Source of the DNA: Gemmatimonadota bacterium
Lineage (GTDB): Bacteria; Gemmatimonadota; Gemmatimonadetes; Gemmatimonadales; GWC2-71-9
Direction of reading: 5' to 3'
Assembly (NCBI GenBank): GCA_039588295.1
Contig: JBDHAB010000040.1
Location: forward strand, 1 to 54,784
DNA length: 54,784 nucleotides
Part shown: piece by piece, positions 11,833-26,632 of the stretch
Layout: each line of letters starts with the position of its first letter
How positions within the stretch are numbered: position 1 is the stretch's first letter
Notes under the pieces: generated by a model
The model's database searches: none
Told to the model about the DNA's origin: nothing
Seen by the model: only the letters and a program-made list of their open reading frames with translations
Translations under genes and position numbers: made by a program

Positions 11833-13926
11833 TCAGGGTCTCCTCACCGTGCGGATCCGGTCGCCCTGGGTGACCCGATCCACGACGTCCATGCCGGACT
11901 GCACGGTACCGATGACCGTGTAGGTCCCGTCCAGGTGGGGTTGCGGGGTGTGGGTGATAAAGAACTGGCTGCCACCCGTGTCTGGCCCGGACAGCGCGAT
12001 GCCGACGGTTCCCCGGCCGTAGCCGCGGCGACTGACCTCATCCCGGATGCTGAAACCGGGGCCGCCCCAACCATCGCCGCGAGGGTCACCGCCCTGAATC
12101 ACGAAATTGGGCACCACGCGGTGCCAGACCCCGTTGTCAAAGTACTGTCGGTCTACAAGCTCGAGCAGCGCATTCACGGTCAGTGGGGCGTCCGCTGCAA
12201 ACAGCTGAATGACGATGCGGCCGCGGTCCGTCTCGAGCACGAGGCTGGGTGTCTCCACCGCCCGTTCCGCGGGCAGCAGGAGGCGCCGCGCGATATCCCG
12301 ATAATCGCCGATGTCTCGCCCGGTTTGGATCGGGTGCGCCCCGCCCCAGCGGCGCGCCGCCATCGGTAGGTGCTCCTCCGCCGCACCCCGCACCAGGTAG
12401 TCCTCGCAAGTCGGGTACCGACCGAGAAACGCATCCTCGACCTCGAACGCCTGGGACGGACCCAGCGCCGCGATGGCGCCGAGGGCTTCGACGACGGCAA
12501 CGCGGGCATCGGGAATCGGATCGCCCAGGGCGAGCTCGTAGGCGGCGATGAGTCGGGCCAAGTCACTGGGGCGCGGCCAGCGACGTACGCGCTCGGCCGC
12601 GTGGCGACGTACGACCGGATCCCGATGTGTCAGCAGCTCTCCCACGAGGTCACGGGTCGTCACACTGTCGGCTCCATCGAGAACGCTGAGCGCGCTTGCC
12701 ACGACCCGTCCGTCGGAATCCTCGAGCAGCAGCTCGAGCCAACCCAACGCCGTGTCGCCGCCGATCACACCGAGGACCTGCGCACCGCCCGAGCGGAGCC
12801 GCCAGTCGGCATTCGTGATCCACGCCGCCGTCTTGACAAGCGCAGTCGCGCGGTCCACGCGCGCGAGACCCGCAAGCGCCTGTTGACGGGCCGCGAGGAG
12901 GCGATCGGCCTCGTGCTGGATCAGCACATCTCGGGATTCCGAGTCGGCGAGTCGCGCCAATGTGGCGAGCGCAACCACGCGAACGTTCGGCTCCGGATCC
13001 GATAATCGGTCGATGACCGGCCCCGCGAGCGCCCGGTCATCATAGGTGCCAAGCGTGCGCAGGGCGTTCACGCGCACACCCATGACGGAATCCTCCGTGA
13101 GCCGGGTCAGTGCCTGCGCAGCGGCGGCCCCGAGCCCCGAGGAGTCAGCGAAGCTGCTGGTGAGCGCACGCGCGGCGTGGTCCCGAATCTCCGGATCCGC
13201 ATGATTGGCGGCATTGAGCAGCACGCCACCGGCCTGCCGCGGGCGCAGGCGTGACAGCGAATACAGTGCCCGCCGGCGCACTTGCAGCTCCCCCGACTCG
13301 GCGAGCTGCACGAGCGTCGTCACCGGCGCATCCGCACCGAGTCGCCACGCGTCCCCGACGGCCCGCACAGCGACCGCAGGCGCACCACCGGATTGCAGCG
13401 TGGATGTGGTCTGCGTGAACACCTCGGCGAAGATGGAGCCGGCCTCCGGACCCCCGATCTTCGCGATCGCCGAAATGGCCTCGTCGCTCACGCCCGTCTG
13501 ACCGGCCGTGACGGCGCTCAGCACCCGCGTCCGCAACGGGCCGAGCGCTGAGGGGTCGGCGATCAGGCCGAGTGCGAAGGCCGCGTCCTGTTGCACGATG
13601 CTGTCTTCGTCGGTCAACAGGTCGAGCAGGGTGGGAAGTGCCGCCGGATCGCCAATACGTCCCATGGCCAGGGCCGCGTGGCGCCGAACGATCGGGTCAG
13701 GGAATCTCGCGGCTGCTGACAGCACCGCGCCATTGTACTGGCGTGCGTCTTCGGCTGCCAGCACGCCGGCCAACTGGTCGACCACGGCCTCGTCCTGCGC
13801 CCGGAGGGCAGCGGCCGGCAGCCCGGTCGCAAGGACGAGCAGGAGGAGATGGACGCTAGAGCCGCACGGGATCGGGTGCCTGGATGAACTTCTTCCGAAT
13901 GCTCGCGGGGATCGCGGTGGGAACAT
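11833..13926 (-). CDS. Exported HEAT-repeat protein with C-terminal cyclophilin-type peptidyl-prolyl isomerase (start uncertain)
   Basis: HEAT repeats. HRVVPNFVIQGGDP, GSQFFIT and HLDGTYT motifs. Confidence 0.9.
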   Translation of the reverse strand: MFPPRSPRAFGRSSSRHPIPCGSSVHLLLLVLATGLPAAALRAQDEAVVDQLAGVLAAEDARQYNGAVLSAAARFPDPIVRRHAALAMGRIGDPAALPTLLDLLTDEDSIVQQDAAFALGLIADPSALGPLRTRVLSAVTAGQTGVSDEAISAIAKIGGPEAGSIFAEVFTQTTSTLQSGGAPAVAVRAVGDAWRLGADAPVTTLVQLAESGELQVRRRALYSLSRLRPRQAGGVLLNAANHADPEIRDHAARALTSSFADSSGLGAAAAQALTRLTEDSVMGVRVNALRTLGTYDDRALAGPVIDRLSDPEPNVRVVALATLARLADSESRDVLIQHEADRLLAARQQALAGLARVDRATALVKTAAWITNADWRLRSGGAQVLGVIGGDTALGWLELLLEDSDGRVVASALSVLDGADSVTTRDLVGELLTHRDPVVRRHAAERVRRWPRPSDLARLIAAYELALGDPIPDARVAVVEALGAIAALGPSQAFEVEDAFLGRYPTCEDYLVRGAAEEHLPMAARRWGGAHPIQTGRDIGDYRDIARRLLLPAERAVETPSLVLETDRGRIVIQLFAADAPLTVNALLELVDRQYFDNGVWHRVVPNFVIQGGDPRGDGWGGPGFSIRDEVSRRGYGRGTVGIALSGPDTGGSQFFITHTPQPHLDGTYTVIGTVQSGMDVVDRVTQGDRIRTVRRP

Positions 13927-14284
13927 GTGTAGAATCTACCGCGACAAGCGCCGTTTGTGCCGTCGCCAGGATCGTTCCGGCTGCGCCATCCTCCACGAGG
14001 TAGCCGAACACCACGCGCCGACTCTCGACCTGCCGGACCCAGCAGCGCACCTGGATCACATCGTCGTACCGGGCCGGTTGCCGGTATCGCACGTGCGCCT
14101 CGACCACGGGAAGGCGCAGCCCCTGTTCCTCGAGGTCCCGGTAGCGGACTCCCAAGCGACGCATGTGATCGGTGCGAGCCTGCTCACACCACACCAGGTA
14201 GTTGGAGTGGTGCGCGACACCCATCTGGTCGGTTTCGGCGTAGCGTACGCGAAACTCGATCGTGGTCACGGCGTTCGGTTCCAT
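13856..14284 (-). CDS. Acyl-CoA thioesterase (YbgC/FadM hotdog family)
   Basis: RVRYAETDQMGVAHHSNY motif. Confidence 0.92.
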   Translation of the reverse strand: MEPNAVTTIEFRVRYAETDQMGVAHHSNYLVWCEQARTDHMRRLGVRYRDLEEQGLRLPVVEAHVRYRQPARYDDVIQVRCWVRQVESRRVVFGYLVEDGAAGTILATAQTALVAVDSTHVPTAIPASIRKKFIQAPDPVRL

Positions 14285-14323
14285 GCTCCAAGTTGCCTTA
14301 CCGGAGGATGTGAGCGGTTGCTC

Positions 14324-14596
14324 CTACTCGACGAGCACCACCTCGTCCACCACACCCGCGATGACGGCTCTCACCGCACCCGGGTCGATTCCCAGAATCT
14401 GCCGGGCGCCGTTCCCTTCGTCGATCACCAGCACGGTGTCGCCGGGTCCCGCCTGCGCCACGTCTACCGCGATGTCGTAGCTGCCGGTCTCCTGGCCGTC
14501 GAGGTCCAACTGGTTCACGAGCAGCAACCGGCGCCCCTCGAGGTGAGCGATCTTGATGGTGGCGACCACCGAGCCGACGACCTTGCCGATGTACAC
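14324..14596 (-). CDS. BMC vertex protein (BMC-P, EutN/CcmL family) #3
   Basis: GKVVGSVVAT.K...AVD..QAGPGD.VL...GVVD. Confidence 0.93.
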   Translation of the reverse strand: MYIGKVVGSVVATIKIAHLEGRRLLLVNQLDLDGQETGSYDIAVDVAQAGPGDTVLVIDEGNGARQILGIDPGAVRAVIAGVVDEVVLVE

Positions 14597-14598
14597 GG

Positions 14599-14928
14599 TC
14601 AGCGCCCCGTGGCCGGTGGCCGGTGCCACGTTGCCGTCGGCCGGTCGCGGCGGATCCCCTGCTCTACGCTCACCTCGTCGATGATCCCGGTGATTGCCAG
14701 GTCGACGGGAACGACCACTTTGGGCAACGCTTGTGCCCCTTCGCGGCTCGCCACCATGCAAACGAGGTGCCCCGGGCCCGCTTGCGCGGTTGCATCCGCG
14801 GCAACCTCGGGCGCACCGCGCGGCCGTCGCTCCTCATCGAGCGGCTGGACCACCAAGAGCTTGATGCCCTCGAGGCCCTCGTACTTGTGGGTGGCCACCA
14901 CCGTCCCGACTACACGCGCGAATTTCAC
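14599..14928 (-). CDS. BMC vertex protein (BMC-P, EutN/CcmL family) #2 with C-terminal extension
   Basis: ARVVGTVVATHK...PVDLAITGIID. GTG start overlaps the upstream stop. Confidence 0.92.
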   Translation of the reverse strand: MKFARVVGTVVATHKYEGLEGIKLLVVQPLDEERRPRGAPEVAADATAQAGPGHLVCMVASREGAQALPKVVVPVDLAITGIIDEVSVEQGIRRDRPTATWHRPPATGR

Positions 14929-15515
14929 AGCCGCTCCAGCACCCGTGCGCTGAACCGTGTGGCGTCGGACACGTTCTCCCACATCTCCCGATGCAGCTGC
15001 GAGATCACGACCTTCCGCACGAGCAGCCCGGGTCGGTGGAGCGCCCGCACGCCGATCTCCACCGCCGCTTCCACGTTCGCCACCAGGCCGGAATAGAGCA
15101 CGATTCCCTTGCCGCCGAGTCCGTCGGCCAGCCGGACCTCGACCAGGCGCACGTCCGCGCCTTTGATGCCGGAGTCAGCGGCGTGGATGGCGGCGGCGAC
15201 GGTCGTCGTCTCCACCACCCCGAGTGCGTCGGTGACACTGGGCACACGGCCACCGCCGATGGCCTGCACGACATCGCCGTGGACGTGCGGCAGGAAGACG
15301 TGGTCGAGCACGGCATCCCCGCCGACTTCCCGCCCCGCGGCGAGTGACTCCTGAACCTCCGCCACGGTCCCGCCGATCAGCACCAGGTACCGGCCCGGCT
15401 GGACCGTTCCGGCTCGCAGGACGTCAATCTCGGCGCGCTTGACCATCGCGTCTGCCGCCTGGATGCCGACCGCGATACTGCTGAAATCGACCAGCGCAAG
15501 AGCAGGTTCAATCAT
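14925..15515 (-). CDS. BMC trimer shell protein (tandem BMC domain, PduT-like BMC-T)
   Basis: SIAVGIQAADAMVK...PGRYLV and ALGVVETTT..AAI.AAD...LADGLGGKG. An alternative ATG lies at 15542. Confidence 0.92.
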   Translation of the reverse strand: MIEPALALVDFSSIAVGIQAADAMVKRAEIDVLRAGTVQPGRYLVLIGGTVAEVQESLAAGREVGGDAVLDHVFLPHVHGDVVQAIGGGRVPSVTDALGVVETTTVAAAIHAADSGIKGADVRLVEVRLADGLGGKGIVLYSGLVANVEAAVEIGVRALHRPGLLVRKVVISQLHREMWENVSDATRFSARVLERL

Positions 15516-15546
15516 GCTGTGTGGTTTTCCCTTGGTCGCCATGTGG

Positions 15547-17022
15547 TCACACGATCCGGAAAGAGTCTTTCAGCACACAGCGCCGGATGCGACTGAAGCT
15601 GATCGGGCTGGTGATCCCTTCGCCGGTCGGGCTCGCGATGGTGAAGGAGCAGAAGCCCTCACCGCCATAGCCGAGCCCGTCGAACGACGCACCATTCTTG
15701 ACGAAGATGCTGCAGTCCATCTCGCGAGCCATGCGACTCAGATGGTCGAGGTTCTTGGAGTGCATGACCGCCGTATGCCGGAACCCGTGCTCGGCCTGCT
15801 TCGCGAGATCGATACCTTCGTTTGCGTGCTGCACACGAACGAGCGGCAGGATGGGCATCATCTGCTCCGAGAACACCAAGGGGTCGTCCCGCTCGACTTC
15901 GGCGAGAACCAACCGCACCTCGTCGCCCGCCTCGATACCGGCTTCACGCAGGAGCACGGAGGCGTTCTTCCCGATGAACTCGATGTTCATGGTTCCGTGA
16001 CGACCGGCCTGTGGTGTGTCCTTGAAGATCGAGCGCCGCAAGCGGTCCAGCTGACGGCCGTCGACCTCCACGGCCCCGTGCGCCTGCATGACGCGCTTGA
16101 GCTCGTCGGCAATGGTGCCGACGGCAAACACTTCCTTCTCGTCAGTGCACACAATGTTGTTGTCGAACGAGGCGCCCCGCGTGAGGTCACGGCCCGCCTG
16201 CTCGAGGTCTGCGGTCTCGTCCACCACCACGGGTGGGTTACCCGGTCCGGCGCAAATCGCCCGCTTGCCGCTCGCCATGGCCGCGCGGACCACGGCGGCG
16301 CCGCCGGTTACCGTCAGCAGGTTCACCTCCCGGTGCGCCATGATCTGCTGGGCGGTCTCGAGGGTCGGTTCGGCGATCGCACAGACGAGATTCGCCGGAC
16401 CGCCGGCCTCAACCACGGCATCGTTGATGAGCTGCACGACGCGGTTCGAGCAGCAGCGCGCCCCGGGATGGGCGTTGAATACCACCGCGTTGCCGGCCGC
16501 CACCATGCTCACGCTATTGCAGACGACGGTCGAAATCGGGTTGGTGCTGGGGATGATGGATCCGATGAGACCGTACGGTGCGAACTCAACCACCGTCAGC
16601 CCTCCATCGCCGCTCCACGCGCTCGTATCGAGGAACTCTGTTCCCGGTGCCTTGTTGGCGTTGAGCAGCACCTTCTCGATCTTGTCCTCGTACCGGCCCA
16701 TTCCCGTTTCTTGCCATGCGTCGTACGCCAGCGGCTGGGCGTTCTCGCGAACCGTTCGCCGGATGTGGGCGATCATCTGTTCGCGGACCGAAAGCGGAAG
16801 GTTCTGGAGCTCCTCGAAGGCTTGACGTGCGGCACGTACCGCACCGTCGACGTCGGGGAACAGGTTGTCGCGGTGGCGGGGCTCCGCTGCCGGCTGCGGC
16901 GGGACGGCAGGCGGCGTCGGTGTAGGTGACGGACGGGGACCGTGCCGGACGCGCTCCGAGTGCTGCAGCTCGGACATCACCCGGTCGATGACGGCCCGAA
17001 TTTGGACGTCGTCCATGGTCAC
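15547..17022 (-). CDS. CoA-acylating aldehyde dehydrogenase (EutE/PduP family) with N-terminal encapsulation peptide
   Basis: PSTNP, AGPGNPP, catalytic [11 protein letters not shown] and [10 protein letters not shown] motifs. N-terminal helix [16 protein letters not shown] plus Pro-rich linker. Confidence 0.95.
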
Positions 17023-17318
17023 CGATCCTTGGCCTTGTCGTACTTCACGTCACCGTCGACCTCCACGGTGTCGACGATCGCCATGATGACGCCATCGACC
17101 GGACGCCGATCGGTCATTTTGGTCTGTCGTGCCGAGCTTCCCGTGGCGTACAGCACCACCTCTCCCAATCCGGCGCCGACGGCGTCGGCTGCCACCTGGT
17201 AGCCACCCGTTTCCTTCCCCTCGACGTCCAGCTGCTTGAGGACAAGGAACTTTACGCCGTCCAAGGAAGGTTCTTTGCGCGTTGCCACGAGTGTCCCGAC
17301 CACTCTTCCTAGCAGCAT
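17019..17318 (-). CDS. BMC vertex protein (BMC-P, EutN/CcmL family) #1
   Basis: [12 protein letters not shown]...[17 protein letters not shown]...PVD.VIMAIVD. Confidence 0.95.
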
Positions 17319-17432
17319 AGCCAGCTCCGTTCGCAAACCGGAGGACTCCCACGGCCTTCGGAATCGGGCGCGCCGTCGGCCCGCCCGTTGGACGGACCGA
17401 CGGCCGCAGGGCCTCCGGGGCCCAGCAGTGGG

Positions 17433-17759
17433 TTACTTCTTACCCGACTTCCCGCCGTCGCCACCTTGGCGACCGAGCGGAAGGGCGCGGTCCACGTTTG
17501 CGTGGGGCCGCGGGATGACATGAATGGCCACGAGCTCGCCGACCTTCTTGGCACCCTGCGCACCGGCTTCGACCGCGGCCTTGACCGCGGCGACGTCGCC
17601 ACGCACCACGGCGGTGACGTGCCCTCCGCCTGTCTTCTCGTACGCCACCAGCTCGACCTTGGCCGCCTTGACCATGGCATCGGCCGCCTCGACCATTGCT
17701 GGATAGCTGCGCGTCTCGATCATGCCGAGCGCTTCGATCGCCAGATACTCCTCAGCCAT
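17433..17759 (-). CDS. BMC hexamer shell protein (BMC-H, PduA/EutM family)
   Basis: ALGMIETR...[11 protein letters not shown]...[11 protein letters not shown]...HVIPRPH. Confidence 0.96.
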
Positions 17760-17801
17760 TACTGCCTCCCGACGTCGGTTGGATGATCACGTTCCCCACT
17801 A

Positions 17802-18440
17802 TCAATCACGGCGCTTTGTCTCGACGGTTCGGCCACTGACTCCCTCGATGGCGGCCACCGCCGCACCGTACCCTGCCATGATGTCCCGTTCCTCCCCGCC
17901 CAAGTACACTCGCCCGAAGCTGCCGAACGCGCGGACGTCCAGAATGCTGATGTTGGCTTCTTTCTCCGCCTCGTTGGCGGCAAGCGCCGCGTAGCCGGCG
18001 GGCTCAACCTCCAGCACGTACAGCGTCTGGCCAGCCAGCAGCATGTGGCCGTACCGCATGCGGTTGACCAGCTGTACCTGATGGGCGTCGACGTGCCGAA
18101 TGATCTGACTCGAGACGACGCGCGGTTGGATGCGATCGGACTCGGACACCCCGAGCGCGCCGAGGATCGCCGCACCGGCGGCCCGTACCTCGGCCTGGAC
18201 TTCGTGATGCACCTCCAGCAGTCCGAACAATCGCTCGACGACCTGCATTCCGGGACGGACCCTCGTGGACTTGAGGGCGATATCGGTGATCCGGTTGATC
18301 TCGATGCCGGGAGAGATCTCTACCCACAAGGACGTGTCTCCCGGCAGCGGGAGGAACCCGCGCGCCACCGTGCCCAGGTACGCCGCATGCTGCGGCTGCA
18401 GGTTGTCGAGGAACGCGTACGTACGAAGATCAACTGACAT
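17802..18440 (-). CDS. BMC permuted trimer shell protein (CcmP/CsoS1D-like double-stacking BMC-T)
   Basis: [32 protein letters not shown] and AANEAEK...FGR motifs. Confidence 0.9.
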
Positions 18441-18449
18441 TCGCAGTCC

Positions 18450-19319
18450 TCACGATTCGGATTCCTGAATGATCTTGACGCTGGCACTGGCGCCGATCCT
18501 GCTGGCCCCGGCCGCGATCATCTTTTGTGCGTCGGCGTAGCTACGGATCCCGCCCGCCGCTTTGACTCCCATCTTGGGGCCTACCACCCGGCGCATCAGC
18601 GCGACATCGTCGGTCGTCGCGCCGCCGGGTCCGAACCCGGTGGACGTCTTGACGAAATCGGCGCCGGTCATCTTGGCGAGCTGGCTTGCAGCCACCTTCT
18701 CCTCGTCGGTGAGGAGCGCAGCCTCGATGATCACTTTGAGGATCGCACCGCCGGCATGGCACGCCCGCGCCACCGACGCGATGTCGCGCTCCACCCGTTC
18801 ATAGTCGCGTGACTTGAGTGCGCCGACGTTGATCACCATGTCGACCTCCGTGGCACCATCCCGAATCGCTTTCTGGGCCTCGAACACTTTCGCGTCCGTC
18901 GAGGTCGCACCCAGCGGGAACCCCACGACGGTGCAGATGAGCACGTCACTGCCCTTCAAGAGGTCGGCACACAGCTTCACGTTGGACGGGTTGATACACA
19001 CCGAGGCGAACCCGTGCTTGCGAGCTTCGTAGCAGAGTTGCGCGATCTCATCTTGGGTCGCGTCGGGCTTGAGCAACGTGTGATCGATCATGTGGCTCAA
19101 GGTGCCGTCCGTGGGCGCGGCGCCCAGCGTGCTCGCAATGCGGTCGGCGCCCGCGTTGACGACCGGCTGCACCCGGTCGACGTAGTTCTGGGGGGACAGG
19201 GTCGGTGCGCCGTTGCCGCCCGTCTGATCGGGGGACACGCGCTGCTCCTGCACCAGGACCAGGACCTGGTGTGTGATCTGCTCGATGAGCCGCTCGAGGG
19301 TCTCGTCGTCAAACTGCAT
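18450..19319 (-). CDS. deoC: Deoxyribose-phosphate aldolase with N-terminal encapsulation peptide
   Basis: [28 protein letters not shown] and GVKAAGGIR motifs. ~70-aa N-terminal extension starting [17 protein letters not shown]. Confidence 0.96.
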
Positions 19320-19361
19320 GCCCGGCCCGCCTCCGTTGCGTCCGGTCGCTCGCCACCGCTC

Positions 19362-20126
19362 TCATCCTTTGCGCTGAAACCGTCGTTCGATATCCATGAT
19401 CTTCCCGACACGGCGCGCGTGCCGACCACCGCCGGTCGGGGTCTCCAGCCAGGTGCCCACGATTTGCCGAGCCAACTCCGGGCCAATCATGCCCGCCCCG
19501 AGTGTCAGCACGTTGGCGTCGTTGTGCGAGCGGCTATTCACGGCCGTTGCCCGGTCGTAGCACATGGCGGCTCGCACTCCCGGCACTTTGTTGGCGGCCA
19601 TGCACGAGCCAATACCGGCGCCATCCACCAGGACCCCGCGCCAGGCGCGGCCTTCGGCCACCAGTTGCCCCACGGCCAGGGCGAAATCGGGGTAATCGAC
19701 CGATTCAGCGCTGTTCGTCCCACAGTCGATGGTGGTGTAACCCAACTCCCTGAGCTGGCCCTTGAGAAACTGCTTTAACTCGAATCCGCCGTGATCCGCG
19801 CCAATCGCGACGGTCTTGTCCTCGGTCCGGGCGACCGCGGGTGGTGTGCGCTCGGCGTTGCAGACGGTACCGCCGGCCCCGGCCTCGACCACGGTGATGC
19901 CGCGTTCCATGGCAGCCTGCCGAGCGAGCGGCGTGACGATCGCGCCGTCGGGGATCTCGAACTCTCCGCCCGGTGGCACGCCTTCCAAATCGTGCCCCGT
20001 CACCAGAATGCGTTCCCGCGCCGGTGCGGCCGGAGGCGGCCTACCGACCGCTCGGTAGACGACGCGACGCACCATGTCGCGAATGGTCTGCTCGTCGAGC
20101 TGTCGACCCGGCAGGACGCTGGTCAT
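19362..20126 (-). CDS. rpiB: RpiB/LacAB-family sugar-phosphate isomerase with N-terminal encapsulation peptide and extra domain
   Basis: IGADHGG, DYPD, AANKVPGVRAA, HNDANVL and GGRHARRV motifs. ~100-aa N-terminal extension. Confidence 0.9.
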   Translation of the reverse strand: MTSVLPGRQLDEQTIRDMVRRVVYRAVGRPPPAAPARERILVTGHDLEGVPPGGEFEIPDGAIVTPLARQAAMERGITVVEAGAGGTVCNAERTPPAVARTEDKTVAIGADHGGFELKQFLKGQLRELGYTTIDCGTNSAESVDYPDFALAVGQLVAEGRAWRGVLVDGAGIGSCMAANKVPGVRAAMCYDRATAVNSRSHNDANVLTLGAGMIGPELARQIVGTWLETPTGGGRHARRVGKIMDIERRFQRKG

Positions 20127-20139
20127 GCGCGCGGCCTCG

Positions 20140-20853
20140 TCACCAGGTGCGCCATTCCGGGCGATCGATGTCCGGCGCCCGCTGGCCCGAAACCGAGGGC
20201 CTCGCGCCCTCGGGAAGTCTCGTCGCGTCACCGCGCTCCCGACGGGCACGGTCCTCCAAGAACTGGATGTGGGACCGAAGCTCCGCGACGGATGCGTCAA
20301 ACGGTTCCAGGCCGCCGTGGGCCCGAGCCTGCATCACTCCACCTTGCATTACGGAGAGCACGAACCGAGACAGCGCCGCGCGATCGAGGTCCGCCGGCAA
20401 TCGGTCACCGGCGGCTTCGAACCAGCGGCGGACGCCGTGGGTCCAGCCAGAGAAGTACCGATCGATGAGCACTCGCACCTCCGGCAGGCGGTCTCCCACC
20501 TCCAAGGCCAGGTTCCCCACGGGGCAGCCCATGGTGCAGCCAGACATGACCAGGCCTCTCCGGTAATGCTCGAGCAGCGCCAATACCCGCGCGACGGGAT
20601 CATCGGCCGCACGTTCCACGGGTTCGAAGATCGTGGGCCGCAGTTGGGCCAGATGGCGCTCCACGACGGCCGCCAGCAAGGCCTCCTTGTTGGCGAAGAA
20701 GTGGTACAGACTCCCGCTCTGGACGCCCGCGCCTCTCAGGATCGTCGCGACCCCGGTCGCGCCGTAGCCCCGCTCATGGAACAGGCGGGCAGCCAATGCG
20801 AGAATGCGATCTCCCGTATGAGCGCCAGAACGCTCAGTTGATTGATCGATCAA
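20140..20853 (-). CDS. TetR/AcrR family transcriptional regulator heading the BMC operon
   Basis: HTH (GSLYHFFANKEALL) and C-terminal GCPVGNLALE motif. TTG start uncertain. Confidence 0.92.
   Translation of the reverse strand: MIDQSTERSGAHTGDRILALAARLFHERGYGATGVATILRGAGVQSGSLYHFFANKEALLAAVVERHLAQLRPTIFEPVERAADDPVARVLALLEHYRRGLVMSGCTMGCPVGNLALEVGDRLPEVRVLIDRYFSGWTHGVRRWFEAAGDRLPADLDRAALSRFVLSVMQGGVMQARAHGGLEPFDASVAELRSHIQFLEDRARRERGDATRLPEGARPSVSGQRAPDIDRPEWRTW
20838..20853. promoter_or_regulatory. Palindromic candidate TetR operator
   Basis: TTGATTGATCGATCAA contains the perfect palindrome TTGATCGATCAA and overlaps the tetR start. Confidence 0.55.
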
Positions 20854-20945
20854 GCAGATGATCTCATTTATAGTGCTGCCAAGTCATACTGGTTACTTGA
20901 ACAATCATTCACCTTTCGGGAAGATTGTCAACCCCTCGCATAAGG

Positions 20946-20974
20946 TTGCGGCCGTTTGGGACCCCTGCCATACT
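20946..20974 (+). promoter_or_regulatory. Sigma70-like promoter for the lpxH-like gene (leaderless)
   Basis: TTGCGG-N17-CATACT, 6 nt before the ATG at 20981. Confidence 0.55.
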
Positions 20975-20980
20975 CCGGCC

Positions 20981-21715
20981 ATGCTTCCCCACGCTGCCGT
21001 CATCGTGTCGGATGCCCATATCGGCTATGCGCCCCCTGACACGGTCGCGGCATTCCACCGATTCCTCAGGTCCGTACCGGAGCTCGCCAACCATCTGGTC
21101 ATTAACGGGGATCTATTCGAATTCTGGTTCGAGTACCGGTCAGTCATCCCCAAAGCGGCGTTTGGCACGTTGGAGTGCTTGAGCGCCGTACGCCGTGCCG
21201 GGGTGAAGCTCACCCTCACTGGCGGCAACCACGACCGGTGGGGCGGTGAGTTCTGGACCCGTGAACTCAAGGCGAGGTTTGGACCCCACTCCCTGGAGAC
21301 CGAGCTGGTTGGGCTCACCGCGCTCGTCGCGCATGGCGACGGAATCGGCGACCGGCAGTTGAGTGCGAGGGTTCTGCAGGCCATCACACGCCACCGGGTG
21401 GCGACAGCCTTGTTCCGGCTGGTGCATCCGGACCTGGGCCACGCGATGGTACGTCGCCTCTCTCCGTACCTCGCCGGCAAGGCCCGCAACGAGGCGGCCC
21501 GAATGGAGGCTGCGGCACACCAGCGTGAGCACGCGCGGCGGGTGCTCTCAACACGTCCCGATCTCAACCTGGTGGTCCTGGGCCACACGCACGTGAGCGC
21601 GCTGCTCGAGGTCGGGCCCCGGCAGTGGTACCTCAACCCAGGTGCCTGGGCCGAGGGGCTGTGTTACGCGAGGGTGGTGGAGGACGGGCCCGTCTTGGAA
21701 CGGTTCGACGGGTAG
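20981..21715 (+). CDS. lpxH: UDP-2,3-diacylglucosamine diphosphatase (LpxH-like metallophosphoesterase)
   Basis: SDAH, GDLFEFW, GNHD, AHGD, GHTH and NPG motifs. Confidence 0.85.
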   Translation: MLPHAAVIVSDAHIGYAPPDTVAAFHRFLRSVPELANHLVINGDLFEFWFEYRSVIPKAAFGTLECLSAVRRAGVKLTLTGGNHDRWGGEFWTRELKARFGPHSLETELVGLTALVAHGDGIGDRQLSARVLQAITRHRVATALFRLVHPDLGHAMVRRLSPYLAGKARNEAARMEAAAHQREHARRVLSTRPDLNLVVLGHTHVSALLEVGPRQWYLNPGAWAEGLCYARVVEDGPVLERFDG

Positions 21716-22236: not shown

Positions 22237-23160
22237 AGCACCTTGAGGTGCCTCGGCAAGAGGGTCACCTCGATGGAATCGGATTCGGGGTAGCGTAGCT
22301 CGCCGTCGACCTGAACCGTGAGAGGGCCCGAGAGGCCGCTCACGCGAACCTGCTGGCTGCGAAACAGGGTGACCTCGGGGAGATGGAGGTGCTTGCCGCG
22401 GACCACGCTTGGAACGTAACGAAGAAACCGAGCCAGACCCACCCGCCGGATGACGCACACGTCGAACAGCCCGTCGTCCAGCAAGGCGTCAGGTGTGAGC
22501 CGGAATCCCCCACCGGCCGTCGCCCCGATCGTAATCGCGAGCATCATCATGCGTGAGCGCTCCGCATGCTCACCCGACTGCACCTCCAGATCCGGCGGCG
22601 TGAACGACCCGAACGTCTTGTAGGCGGCGACGAGGTACAGGGCGAACCCGCGCAGGTGACTCATGCGCAGCGTCTGTCTGACCACCTCGGCGTCAAAGCC
22701 AACGCCCATGCCATTGACGAAGTACTCGTCGCCCACGCGTCCGACATCGAGCCGGCGCCGCGTGCCATCGAGCACCAATTGGAGGTTCCGTTCCGGCGGT
22801 GCCCGTTTCAGCCCCAGCGCCCGTGCGTAGTCGTTTCCGCTCCCGACCGGGACATGGCCCAACGTGACGTTGGTCGGTCCGTCGCCAAGAATGCCGTTCG
22901 CGACGTTATGCACCGTCCCGTCCCCTCCGGCGGCAATGATGACCGGCCAGCCTGCGGCGCGCGCCTCCGCCGCGAGGGCCACCTCTTCCCCCGCATGTCG
23001 CGTGGTGCGGACGACCGCCTCCCACCCAGAGGCTCGGGCGCTGCTGGCGAGGGGATGCTCGAGGCCCTCTCCTCTCCCGCGACCAGCCTTGGGGTTGAGG
23101 ATAATGAAGGCCCGATTGGGGGTATCGGTCGGCGCAGGTGCTCCAGTAGGGTCGAGCCAT
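22218..23160 (-). CDS. Diacylglycerol/lipid kinase family (YegS/BmrU); the only upstream ATG is out of frame
   Basis: IILNPKAG, AAGGDGT, GSGNDYA and VDGE motifs. The frame is open back to a TAA at ~23160 with no in-frame ATG/GTG/TTG before the NP motif. Confidence 0.8.
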
Positions 23161-23300
23161 TACGTTGGCTGATCGGCCAACGGAGTTCAAGCGATTGCCG
23201 AATCGGCGGGCCGCAGGGTGCGGACCTCTGGTGCCGATGCGGGGTGAAACCATCCCGGACTTCCATGACGAGGCCTGCGACAAGACCTGCCAAGACCGTA

Positions 23301-24443
23301 ATGCGCCGGCTCCTCATCGCTGGCGGTCTCCTGCTCGCTGCGTGCGTGGGTGGGCGGCCCGACGCGTCGCGCGACGGCCTGCCGGCCCGAGCCCAGACGT
23401 TCCGCTTGGATTCGGGGTTTGCACAGCTCATCGAGCAGCTCTCTGAGCCTGGCGCCTACTTCGACACCGATAATTTGATCTCGAACGAGCGCTCGTACCT
23501 TCACGTCATGGGAGCCCTCGAACGCCCCGGCGGGCGCGGCGGAGCGTACCTCGGGGTGGGCCCGGACCAGAACTTCTCCTACATCGCCGCCGTTCGGCCG
23601 GACATCGCATTCATCGTGGACATCAGGCGCGAGAACATGCTTCAGCATCTGATGTTCAAGGCCCTCTTCTCGCTGGCCCGGAACCGCATGGAGTACCTGT
23701 GCCTGCTCCACGGTCGGACCATGCCTGCCGATGACTCGGCGTGGACGGAGCGCCCGGTAGAGGAGTTGGTCGCGTACGTGGACAGCGTCGGAGCGGCTCG
23801 CGAGACGGCGGCGGCATCCCGTAACGCCGTCTTGCGAACGGTGCAGACGTTCGGTGTCCCCCTATCGGACGAAGATCTCCGCACCATTGGTGACTTCCAT
23901 GGGCGCTTCGTCCAGGCAGGTCTCGGGCTGCGATTCCAGAGCCATGGTCGTGTTCCCCTGCCCCACTACCCGACGTATCGCGAGCTGCTGCTCGAACGCG
24001 ACCTGGCGGGCAATCGCGCCAGCTACGTCGCCAGTGAGCGTGCCTTTCAGCGCGTGAAGTTGCTGCAGGCCCAGGATCGCATCATCCCGGTCGTGGGAGA
24101 TTTCGCCGGGGATCATTCGCTGGCGGCCATCGGCGCGCTCTTGAGCCGCCGAGGCGAGAAGGTGACGGCGTTCTACCCGTCGAACGTGGAGTACTACCTC
24201 ATGCGTGGCGGCGGCTTTGAGCGTTTCGTGGCCAACGTTGGTCGACTTCCGCACGACGATCGGAGCATGATCATCCGTAGCTTCTTTGGACGAAACTTCG
24301 GGTTCGTGCATCCACAGACGGTGCCCGGCTACTACACGGTACAGCTGCTCCAGTCGACGCGGCGCTTCCTCAGGGACCAGACCGAGGGCACCTACCGCTC
24401 CTATCTGGACCTCGTCACACGGGACGTAATCGAGCTGCGGTAG
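23301..24443 (+). CDS. Conserved hypothetical lipoprotein
   Basis: Lipobox LLAA-C. 380-aa ORF with FDTDNLISNE, GVGPDQNFSYI and SNVE motifs. Terminator follows. Confidence 0.8.
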   Translation: MRRLLIAGGLLLAACVGGRPDASRDGLPARAQTFRLDSGFAQLIEQLSEPGAYFDTDNLISNERSYLHVMGALERPGGRGGAYLGVGPDQNFSYIAAVRPDIAFIVDIRRENMLQHLMFKALFSLARNRMEYLCLLHGRTMPADDSAWTERPVEELVAYVDSVGAARETAAASRNAVLRTVQTFGVPLSDEDLRTIGDFHGRFVQAGLGLRFQSHGRVPLPHYPTYRELLLERDLAGNRASYVASERAFQRVKLLQAQDRIIPVVGDFAGDHSLAAIGALLSRRGEKVTAFYPSNVEYYLMRGGGFERFVANVGRLPHDDRSMIIRSFFGRNFGFVHPQTVPGYYTVQLLQSTRRFLRDQTEGTYRSYLDLVTRDVIELR

Positions 24444-24992: not shown

Positions 24993-26632
24993 CTAGAAGA
25001 GACCCTCGATCGTGCCGTCCTTGCCGAGACGCATCTTCTCGGCGGCGGGCGTCTTCCCGAGGCCCGGCATCGTCATGATGTCGCCGGTGAGCGCCACCAC
25101 GAATCCGGCACCGGCTGACGGGGTGATGTCACGCACGCTCACGGTGAATCCGCTCGGGGCTCCCAGTTTGGACGCGTCATCCGTGAACGAATACTGCGTC
25201 TTGGCCATGCACACCGGCGTCTCGCCCAACCCGAACGCAGCGAGCCGCTCCGCGGCGCGCGAGGCCTTTGGCGTGTAGCTCACGCCGTCCGCGCCATAGA
25301 TCTCCTTCGCCACCCGCTCGATCTTCTCCATGATCGACAGCTTCGTGTCGTACAGCGGTGTGAACTGCGCACCGCCCGCATCGAGGGTCTCGATCACCGC
25401 CTGGGCGAGCTCGATGCCGCCGGCGCCGCCCTGTTCCCACACGTCACACAATGCCACCTTCGCCCCCAGCGACACGCAGCCCGAGCGAACCACCTCGACT
25501 TCTTCATCGGTATCCGAGAGAAACCGATTGATGGCTACCATCGTTGGGACGCCGAACTTCGCCACATTCTCGAGATGCCGAGCGAGGTTGCCGAAGCCGC
25601 GCTCTACGGCTTCGGGGTTGGGCTCGGTCAGCTCGCCTTTCTTGGCGCCACCGTGGAGCTTGAGCGCTCGGATGGTTGCCACGACGACCGCTGCCTCCGG
25701 GTTCAGCTCACCCACACGGCACTTGATGTTGAAGAACTTCTCCGCGCCCGGGTCCGCCCCGAATCCCGCTTCGGTAACGACGAGGTCGGCGAGACGGAGC
25801 GCCGTAGCGGGGGCGATGACGGAATTGCCGGCCCGCCCTCGAGCGTCTGCACGAGGTTGGGAAGGATCGCGTCCTTGAGTAGCAATGCCATCGCTCCCTG
25901 CGCCTTGAGCTCGCGCGCCCGGACCGGTTCCCGATCTCGCGTCATGCCGACGATGATGCGACCGAGCCGCTCCTCGAGGTCGTCCGCGTCTCGGGCCAGC
26001 GACAGGATGGCCTGAATCTCGCTGGCCGGGGTGATTACGAACCGATCCTCGCGCGGCACGCCGCCGAGGAATCCTCCCAACCCGATGACGATATCGCGCA
26101 GCGCGCGGTCGTTCATGTCGATGGTCCGTGGCCACGTGATGCGTCGCGAGTCGATGCCGAGTCCATTTCCTTGGTGCAGATGGTTGTCGAGCATTGCCGA
26201 GAGCAGGTTGTGCGCGCTCGTGATCGCGTGGAAGTCGCCGGTGAAGTGGAGATTGATGTCTTCCATGGGCACGACCTGCGCGTACCCGCCGCCCGCCGCC
26301 CCCCCCTTGATGCCAAACACCGGTCCGAGAGATGGCTCCCGCATACACAGTACGGCGTTGTGCCCCAGCTTCCGAAGCGCCTGCGTGACACCGACCGTCA
26401 CGGTAGACTTCCCTTCGCCGGCTGCTGTCGGATTGACCGCGGTCACTAGCACGAGACGCGCTCGCCGCGGTCGCTCGTCGACGTTCTTCAGTCGGACTTT
26501 GGCTTTGGAGTCTCCGTACGGGATCAGCTCGTCGGGTCCGAGACCGAGGTCGGCGGCCACGTCGGTGATGGAACGGAGTTTGGCTGCCTGCGCAATCTCG
26601 ATGTCGGGCGGTACCGTCTTCGTCGTAGTCAT
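24993..26632 (-). pseudogene. fhs: Formate--tetrahydrofolate ligase, disrupted by a frameshifting deletion at ~25826 (or assembly error)
   Basis: N-terminal frame ([24 protein letters not shown]) ends at QTLEGGPA. C-terminal frame resumes at NSVIA...[23 protein letters not shown]. Confidence 0.9.

What the first reader, a model, noticed from the sequence alone, without database searches (positions are those of the whole stretch)
14324..20853. Complete DeoC/RpiB (sugar-phosphate) microcompartment operon in an unusual host
Seen: tetR-rpiB-deoC-BMC-T-BMC-H-BMC-P-aldDH-BMC-T-BMC-P-BMC-P, all co-oriented and sitting among housekeeping genes. Established: DeoC cleaves 2-deoxyribose-5-P to glyceraldehyde-3-P and acetaldehyde, and EutE/PduP enzymes convert the aldehyde to acyl-CoA. 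DeoC+RpiB loci have been catalogued bioinformatically as SPU-type BMCs, but to my knowledge their in vivo substrate is not established. Inference: an organelle for catabolising nucleic-acid-derived (deoxy)pentose phosphates that sequesters acetaldehyde. This minimal TetR-headed arrangement may be an undescribed subtype.
Basis: partly seen in the sequence, partly recalled or inferred. Interest (0 to 1): 0.85.

Follow-up and report, generated by a model that had tools for sequence, protein, structure and literature searches.

The report
Known DNA-sugar organelle, tryptophan-tailed repressor
This intact ten-gene operon fits the already catalogued SPU3 type of bacterial microcompartment, predicted to break down the sugar of DNA inside a protein shell; the new detail is its repressor gene, which carries a conserved palindrome that the repressor likely binds and ends in a tryptophan motif that close relatives away from the operon lack and that might dock on the compartment.

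Summary
The novelty claim is not. Enzymes and shell proteins fit the published SPU3 subtype point by point, SPU3 is already listed for Gemmatimonadetes, and the same nine-gene order stands in 26 of 80 related loci. DeoC keeps its catalytic residues and is the only deoC found in this genome and in 13 of 13 operon-bearing relatives. RpiB has the Cys-to-Asp change of the near-inactive SPU paralog (68 of 68). This scan has already reported SPU3 operons on other DNA.

What I did not find in print concerns the TetR head. A 16-bp palindrome covers the -10 box and the start codon (16 of 17 upstream regions). The TetR keeps the cysteine at NemR's C106 position. Its flexible tail ends in W-[RK]-x-W in all 28 operon-linked copies and in none of 8 close relatives with no operon gene nearby; tailed proteins form one clade. 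This recalls McdB's carboxysome-binding terminal tryptophan; binding is untested. Verdict: new member of a known kind, with one testable lead.

The parts
20904..20931 (-). sigma70-type promoter, TTGACA-16 nt-AATGAT (predicted)
   Evidence: The only such site in 13800-21200, 10 of 12 matches; shuffles give 0.9 on average, so the count alone is not significant. A TTGAC[ATG] hexamer lies 16-23 nt before an operator copy in 16 of 17 upstream regions.
20893..20908 (.). degenerate operator copy over the -10 box (predicted)
   Evidence: 4 mismatches to the palindrome, 16.7 bits; the same position holds 0-1 mismatch copies in several relatives.
20838..20853 (.). strong operator copy over the tetR start codon (predicted TetR site)
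   Evidence: 1 mismatch to TTGATTGATCAATCAA, 29.6 bits, best site in the genome; best site outside this promoter 16.9 bits.
20140..20853 (-). TetR repressor of the NemR/YxaF/LmrA group, 237 aa, TTG start; Cys110 at the position of NemR C106
   Evidence: Pfam; PDB 4YZE alignment; AlphaFold2 model, nine helices to residue 206, pLDDT 92.
20143..20154 (-). C-terminal W-R-x-W motif at the end of a 30-residue low-confidence tail
   Evidence: In 28 of 28 operon-linked TetRs and 0 of 8 non-operon relatives; Arg and stop codons vary; tail pLDDT 56-67.
19362..20126 (-). RpiB paralog, 254 aa: N-terminal helix, small folded domain (residues 37-82), isomerase domain with Asp168 in place of the catalytic Cys
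   Evidence: site residues; small domain.
18450..19319 (-). DeoC/DERA, 289 aa, about 70-residue N-terminal extension, catalytic D160, K224, K253 present
   Evidence: TIGR00126 282 bits; PDB 6D33 E 1e-79 from residue 73; motif positions spaced as in the tested SPU6 enzyme (D165, K229, K258).
17802..18440 (-). BMC-T(dp), CcmP-like gated shell trimer
17433..17759 (-). BMC-H hexamer with KAAK, GGG and PRPH motifs
17019..17318 (-). BMC-P pentamer 1
   Evidence: PF03319.
15547..17022 (-). CoA-acylating aldehyde dehydrogenase (EutE/PduP group) with N-terminal helix and Pro-rich linker; catalytic Cys present
   Evidence: PRK15398 over cut-off; PDB 4C3S E 1e-122 from residue 51, with the Cys at the column that is Ala in 5DBV.
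14925..15542 (-). PduT-like BMC-T(s) without any cysteine (Gln48 at the pore-Cys position)
   Evidence: Gln in 25 of 29 loci examined; the pattern found nothing in 4.
14599..14928 (-). BMC-P pentamer 2
   Evidence: PF03319.
14324..14596 (-). BMC-P pentamer 3
   Evidence: PF03319.

Best explanation
The operon is an intact SPU3-type microcompartment locus, predicted to build a protein shell in which DeoC likely splits deoxyribose 5-phosphate from nucleoside salvage into glyceraldehyde 3-phosphate and acetaldehyde and the aldehyde dehydrogenase likely turns the acetaldehyde into acetyl-CoA, under a TetR that likely represses its own promoter. Shown here: gene set, order, intact frames, catalytic residues of DeoC and the dehydrogenase, Cys-to-Asp in RpiB, feeder genes elsewhere in the genome, the conserved palindrome and the TetR tail. 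Inferred from published relatives: DERA activity, a DERA-RpiB complex with RpiB as packing scaffold, and encapsulation by the N-terminal helices. Inferred only: with no phosphotransacylase or alcohol dehydrogenase in the locus, acetyl-CoA/CoA and NADH/NAD+ would have to pass the gated CcmP-like trimer. The TetR dimer would sit on the -10 box and on its own start codon and leave when Cys110 is modified by a thiol-reactive signal, perhaps leaked aldehyde. The W-R-x-W tail is most likely a short binding motif for a product of the operon.
For: Fit to the SPU3 text in every feature I could test. Same order in 26 of 80 related loci. Published activity of a SPU6 DERA, near-inactive RPI with Asp, and their complex; Asp in 68 of 68 RpiB here, with His100, Arg134 and Arg138 of the aligned core invariant. 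The genome has a CNT nucleoside transporter, pyrimidine-nucleoside phosphorylase and phosphopentomutase and a separate RpiA. The operon deoC is the only deoC found here and in 13 of 13 operon-bearing relatives, whereas 355 of 401 phylum genomes have a deoC, so it appears to have replaced the housekeeping enzyme. Operator; similar sites precede 6 of 8 tail-less relatives in other contexts, which ties the site to the TetR and not to the operon.
Against: No experiment exists on this locus or, in what I read, on any SPU3 locus; the tested enzymes are SPU6. No transporter or nucleoside gene lies in the operon, and no second strong operator was found in the genome, so nothing links regulation to nucleosides. 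Cys110 is as conserved in tail-less relatives (60 of 61) as in operon copies (74 of 81), so it is family heritage; in E. coli NemR, C106 answers to reactive chlorine while C21/C116 answer to glyoxals. The amphipathicity test of the N-terminal helices did not separate them from an ordinary TetR helix. The operator consensus was read from the same regions it was then counted in. The tail arose once, so its tie to the operon is one event, not 28.
Confidence: 0.8

Rival explanations
1. The compartment handles another sugar phosphate: the Asp-type RpiB is active on an untested substrate and feeds DeoC.
For: The RpiB pocket residues and the Asp itself are invariant in 51 aligned sequences (68 of 68). 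The authors of PMC11585597 leave other substrates open.
Against: SPU5 lacks RpiB altogether, and the SPU6 DERA has a Km near 0.1 for deoxyribose 5-phosphate. This deoC is the only one found in a genome that has deoB and a nucleoside phosphorylase.
Confidence: 0.12
2. The operon is mainly a stress or aldehyde-detoxification unit, induced by oxidants or electrophiles through the NemR-like cysteine, with deoxyribose cleavage secondary (for example during DNA-damage turnover).
For: The TetR aligns with NemR, cysteine included, and several homologs are labelled 'repressor of nem operon' by their source. The operator regulon appears to be this operon only.
Against: The cysteine predates recruitment to the operon. 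The same nine genes run under GntR-type regulators in Anaerolineae. No reductase or glyoxalase is in the locus.
Confidence: 0.1
3. For the tail only: W-R-x-W is a C-terminal degradation tag, or folds into the TetR dimer's own ligand pocket, and has no contact with the compartment.
For: C-terminal hydrophobic motifs commonly act as protease tags (recalled, no call). GntR regulators of the same operon have no shared tail motif. No patch co-conserved with the TetR group stood out on any operon protein.
Against: The motif appears on the same branch as recruitment to the operon and is kept while the 30-83-residue tail around it diverges freely. The single-chain model leaves it at low confidence. 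No other likely gene of this genome ends in W-[RK]-x-W.
Confidence: 0.5

Closest known systems
SPU3 bacterial microcompartment loci (Sutter et al. 2021, PMC8217296, supplementary file 4; Dwyer et al. 2024, PMC11585597, locus table)
   Same: AldDH + pfam01791 + pfam02502 in the order RpiB-DeoC; one standard BMC-H; three BMC-P; CcmP-like BMC-T(dp); BMC-T(s) with no PduS and no pore cysteine; N-terminal extensions; Gemmatimonadetes among the hosts (E2O48_ in the table).
   Different: RpiB and DeoC are unfused here (both forms are described). The text I read names no regulator for SPU3; the TetR, its operator and its tail are not mentioned.
SPU6 locus of Chloroflexi bacterium GWB2_54_36 (PMC11585597), the one biochemically tested
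   Same: Regulator-RPI-DERA head, DERA catalytic triad spacing, Asp-type RPI, three BMC-P.
   Different: GntR/UTRA regulator, C-terminal encapsulation peptide on AldDH, blue-clade BMC-T(dp), no BMC-T(s), and a short linker on RPI instead of the folded 45-residue domain.
E. coli NemR (PDB 4YZE; review PMC5297802)
   Same: TetR group, and the Gly-Cys motif at NemR C106.
   Different: Distant (E 2e-13). No C-terminal Trp tail is seen in the aligned range. NemR controls nemA-gloA.
McdB carboxysome-positioning adaptor (Basalla et al. 2024, PMC11321042)
   Same: Poorly conserved protein region ending in an invariant Trp with acidic residues nearby (D/E at position -8 in 57 of 81 tails).
   Different: No homology claimed. 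The motif is W-[RK]-x-W, not R(V/I)WPD; it is carried by a sequence-specific repressor; I noticed no ParA/McdA gene among the window genes I annotated; binding is not shown.
Eut_hyp (TIGR02536), PduM and EutT accessory proteins
   Same: Weak profile matches to the small domain of RpiB in 23, 20 and 10 of 44 members.
   Different: E-values are only 8e-5 to 0.1, the window's own copy did not match, and no solved structure matched.

Membership tests
SPU microcompartment | DeoC/DERA (pfam01791) with N-terminal extension in a shell-gene locus | tested here: met
SPU microcompartment | Acylating aldehyde dehydrogenase in the locus | tested here: met
SPU microcompartment | RpiB (pfam02502) with catalytic Cys replaced by Asp | tested here: met
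SPU microcompartment | At least three BMC-P, two of them adjacent | tested here: met
SPU microcompartment | Shell assembly, encapsulation and DERA activity | not testable with these tools
   Needs expression; shown only for SPU6 enzymes and for archaeal SPU-like shells (passages of PMC12747264).
SPU3 subtype | [quoted passage not shown] | tested here: met
   KAAK at 31 and PRPH at 83; single BMC-H gene.
SPU3 subtype | BMC-T(dp) of the CcmP-like clade | tested here: met
   Best PDB match CcmP E 9e-91 against CsoS1D 3e-60; NCBIfam CcmP over cut-off. By similarity, not by tree.
SPU3 subtype | BMC-T(s) without pore cysteine and without PduS | tested here: met
   No Cys in the protein; no PduS-like gene between or beside the operon genes. 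PduS was not searched genome-wide.
SPU3 subtype | No PTAC in the locus | tested here: met
   None in the locus; PF06130 not found in the 96%-complete genome.
SPU3 subtype | N-terminal encapsulation peptides on AldDH and DeoC | tested here: inconclusive
   Extensions are present (solved homologs align from residues 51 and 73), but the hydrophobic-moment test did not discriminate.
SPU3 subtype | BMC-P from green, grey and orange clades; BMC Caller type HMMs | not testable with these tools
   Those HMMs are not among the libraries; two supplementary archives of PMC8217296 were too large to read.
SPU6 subtype | C-terminal encapsulation peptide on AldDH; blue-clade T(dp) | tested here: not met
   The extension is N-terminal and T(dp) is CcmP-like.
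SPU2 subtype | A fourth BMC-P; T(s) usually with pore Cys | tested here: not met
   Three BMC-P and no Cys.
FRAG8 / MUF2 (other Gemmatimonadetes BMC types) | Scattered loci with C-terminal-EP AldDH (FRAG8), or PTAC and class II aldolase (MUF2) | tested here: not met
   Single compact locus, no PTAC found.
McdB-like adaptor | Invariant C-terminal aromatic residue | tested here: met
   Trp at -1 and -4 in the 81 tailed rows, which were selected by that motif; 28 of 28 operon-linked copies, which were not.
McdB-like adaptor | Binds the shell; works with a ParA-type ATPase | not tested
   No job was run with a shell protein, and no genome-wide McdA search was made.

The most novel reading that the evidence does not exclude
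On recruitment to the SPU3 operon, this TetR gained an McdB-like tryptophan tail that binds the microcompartment itself (shell or enzyme core). The organelle would then titrate its own repressor, or be tethered by it to the operon's DNA: direct feedback between an organelle's assembly state and its transcription, which I did not find described for any bacterial microcompartment.
Probability: 0.25. Interest if true: 0.75.

Novelty: new member of a known kind. Interest (0 to 1): 0.3.

Why it matters
As an organelle it adds one more example of a catalogued type. It is a compact one (one promoter, ten genes, 6.5 kb), so it suits the open test of what SPU compartments consume in vivo. The observation that it supplies the only deoC found in 14 of 14 carriers makes deoxynucleoside growth the obvious assay. 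The defined operator gives a reporter for finding the inducer, which would point to the true substrate or signal. If the tail binds the shell, it would extend the McdB terminal-tryptophan rule to a transcription factor and give a four-residue tag for attaching proteins to shells.

Tried and rejected
Complex prediction of the TetR tail with two RpiB cores and two DeoC cores: no answer, score 0.00, controls not folded; no evidence either way. RNA runs: none was listed. Regulon search with the operator matrix: 22 sites at 13 bits or more, none above 16.9 outside this promoter, so no distant regulon members. Idea that the operon RpiB is the genome's only pentose isomerase: rejected, RpiA is present. 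Second PF01791 match: by its sequence an LsrF-like aldolase (label recalled), not matched by TIGR00126 or by tblastn. Idea that W-R-x-W is a by-product of the rpiB ribosome-binding site or reading frame: rejected, because Arg codons (CGC, CGT, CGG, AGG; once AAG Lys), stop codons and the distance to rpiB vary. Search for a patch co-conserved with TetR-bearing loci: scattered positions, confounded by kinship. Shared tail on GntR regulators: none, though two end near a Trp with acidic neighbours (L026, L029). Structure searches for the RpiB small domain: no match at E 0.001, best Z 4.0; Atlas best 0.79; no EutQ model among the NCBIfam hits. Plasmid search with DeoC: best identity under 60%, 1 of 274 records covering 80% of the query. 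The first alignment of upstream regions was spoiled by a slicing error for L012 and was redone without it. The careful tree did not finish; the quick tree is reported.
Full report
Observation. The ten genes are present as described, on the minus strand from 20853 to 14324, with open frames and tight spacing. The 212-aa gene has no Pfam hit but is a CcmP-like double-stacking trimer. The 205-aa gene is PduT-like and has no cysteine. No other BMC-domain gene was found in the genome (4.5 Mb, 96% complete). The host is inferred to be a Gemmatimonadota: the closest DeoC loci are mostly so labelled, and two such loci, L020 and L032, share five flanking genes on both sides.

Family. PMC8217296 (seen: passages of the main text; supplementary file 4, parts 3 and 4 and searches; two archives too large to read) defines SPU3 as AldDH plus pfam01791 and pfam02502, one standard BMC-H, a BMC-P triplet, a CcmP-like T(dp), and a T(s) without PduS or pore cysteine. 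It lists Gemmatimonadetes among the hosts. Each point I could test is met; clade colours could not be tested. PMC11585597 (seen: parts 1-4 of 10 of the main text; locus table whole; supplement 2 part 1 of 2, where the counts of Table S1 did not come through) lists a Gemmatimonadetes SPU3 locus. It shows a SPU6 DERA active on deoxyribose 5-phosphate, a near-inactive RPI with Asp for Cys, and a complex of the two. Locus diagrams in supplements I could not see may show the TetR.

Distribution. A scan with DeoC kept the best 80 of 522 relatives and stopped after 21 of 64 parts of the collection. Of the 80 loci, 26 hold all nine structural genes in this order and 14 of those begin with the TetR. 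Of the 80, 17 have the TetR beside rpiB: 16 labelled Gemmatimonadota and one Akkermansiaceae. Among loci without it, 8 Anaerolineae/Chloroflexota-type loci matched a GntR pattern, two more looked alike by eye, and others had no regulator there. In a sample of the phylum, 14 of 401 genomes carry the T(dp), in two families, so the operon is patchy. The tallies over 401 genomes include G157, flagged unpublished; no other claim rests on it.

Enzymes and pathway. DeoC keeps D160, K224 and K253, spaced as in the tested enzyme. The dehydrogenase is of the acylating EutE/PduP group with its catalytic cysteine. All 68 of 68 RpiB sequences found have Asp at the Cys position, while pocket His and Arg residues are invariant in the 51 aligned. 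The genome encodes a CNT nucleoside transporter, pyrimidine-nucleoside phosphorylase, phosphopentomutase, RpiA and acetate kinase; PTAC was not found. The operon deoC is the only one found here and in 13 of 13 operon-bearing relatives, while 355 of 401 phylum genomes have one. This argues that deoxynucleoside catabolism runs through the compartment. Cofactor exchange through the gated trimer is the published hypothesis for PTAC-less subtypes and is untested. Hodarchaeales SPU-like shells have been reconstituted (PMC12747264, passages).

RpiB extension. A TPLA-like motif lies ahead of the isomerase domain in 51 of 68 sequences (a loose pattern); I aligned 43 of these with the window's copy. The model is a compact beta-alpha fold, pLDDT 86. 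Weak matches went to Eut_hyp (23 of 44), PduM (20 of 44) and EutT (10 of 44); other families hit one member each, and the window's own copy hit none of the three. No solved structure matched. EutQ's N-terminal domain links shell and cargo (PMC12487888, passages), but I did not show homology to it. A linker role is plausible and untested.

Operator. A palindrome, TTGATTGATCAATCAA, lies within 250 nt upstream of the TetR helix in 16 of 17 regions at 3 mismatches or fewer; 200 doublet shuffles gave a mean of 0.005. L012 (contig edge) and L078 (unrelated TetR) were dropped. The consensus was read from these regions and the hosts are kin, so the control flatters. Typically one copy follows a TTGAC[ATG] hexamer over the -10 box and another covers the start codon. 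Here these are 20893-20908 (weak) and 20838-20853 (strong, best in the genome; the matrix included the window's own sites). Sites of 20 bits or more also precede 6 of 8 close TetR relatives in unrelated contexts, as expected of an autoregulatory site. Binding is inferred.

Sensor. Cys110 aligns with the Gly-Cys motif of E. coli NemR, whose C106 responds to reactive chlorine while C21 and C116 respond to glyoxals (PMC5297802, passages and section 3.2). The cysteine is found in 74 of 81 tailed and 60 of 61 tail-less rows, so it predates the operon link. Aldehyde sensing is a guess.

Tail. Every operon-linked TetR ends in W-[RK]-x-W: 25 distinct sequences by script plus three that its pattern missed (L022, L105, L113), 28 of 28. 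None of 8 relatives at 43-57% identity without operon genes in the fetched flanks (1.5-4 kb) has it, and the seven of these from whole genomes had no T(dp) match. Among the 120 best database homologs 67 have it (the ranking favours tailed ones). On a tree of the core alone (142 rows, 136 distinct, quick search), the 81 tailed rows form one side of a branch with SH-aLRT 99: one gain, so no statistic across genomes applies. The 30-83 residues before the motif are unconserved and low-confidence. Synonymous codons vary, so selection is on the protein. Of 4838 likely coding frames in this genome, 4 end in W-x-x-W and only this one in W-[RK]-x-W. McdB uses an invariant C-terminal Trp to bind carboxysomes (PMC11321042, passages); the likeness is an analogy. 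Against it: GntR heads of the same operon share no such motif, and no co-conserved patch was seen. Literature searches (seen as listings) and look-ups in this scan's notes returned nothing on this regulator or tail; 'tetr' does not occur in the main text of PMC8217296. Subscription journals are mostly outside the library.

Verdict. A new member of the known SPU3 kind, already met by this scan on other DNA. Interest 0.3, most of it for the operator and the tail. The bold reading, that the organelle binds its own repressor, is put at 0.25.

Noticed in passing
window 24993-26632 (-): The formate-tetrahydrofolate ligase gene is in two frames: Pfam positions 3-266 and 279-556, with about 12 positions missing near 25825. 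Either a real internal deletion with frameshift or an assembly error.
   Followed up: partly
L028:1860-2980: The RpiB of this Anaerolineales locus carries the small N-terminal domain in about three tandem copies.
   Followed up: no
L056-L060, L064, L066-L068, L070, L073, L074, L076, L077, L083: Mostly Acidobacteriota loci with Asp-type RpiB next to DeoC and no shell gene in the fetched DNA; most keep the small domain. Probably split microcompartment loci.
   Followed up: no
L015; L089; L090: A TetR-headed operon on a contig labelled Akkermansiaceae, with two near-identical metagenome copies: transfer or mis-binning.
   Followed up: no
L111, L114, L115 (downstream of TetR); L088: Tail-less relatives of the TetR precede small glycine-rich, hydrophobic proteins of 110-130 aa, a candidate ancestral regulon.
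   Followed up: no
L026:5351-6175; L029:2432-3307: GntR regulators of the same operon have short C-terminal extensions ending in acidic residues plus Trp (DSGWP, EDWLSS); not shared by the other GntRs.
   Followed up: partly
window 20126-20157 (-): An ATG overlapping the tetR Trp codons opens a 10-codon frame whose stop overlaps the rpiB ATG; possibly chance, possibly translational coupling.
   Followed up: no
G000:C25:37733-39580: The acetyl-CoA synthetase match spans one TAG stop; not examined.
   Followed up: no
window 22566-24443 (+): A long ORF with two DUF7790 stretches, a protein of unknown function.
   Followed up: no
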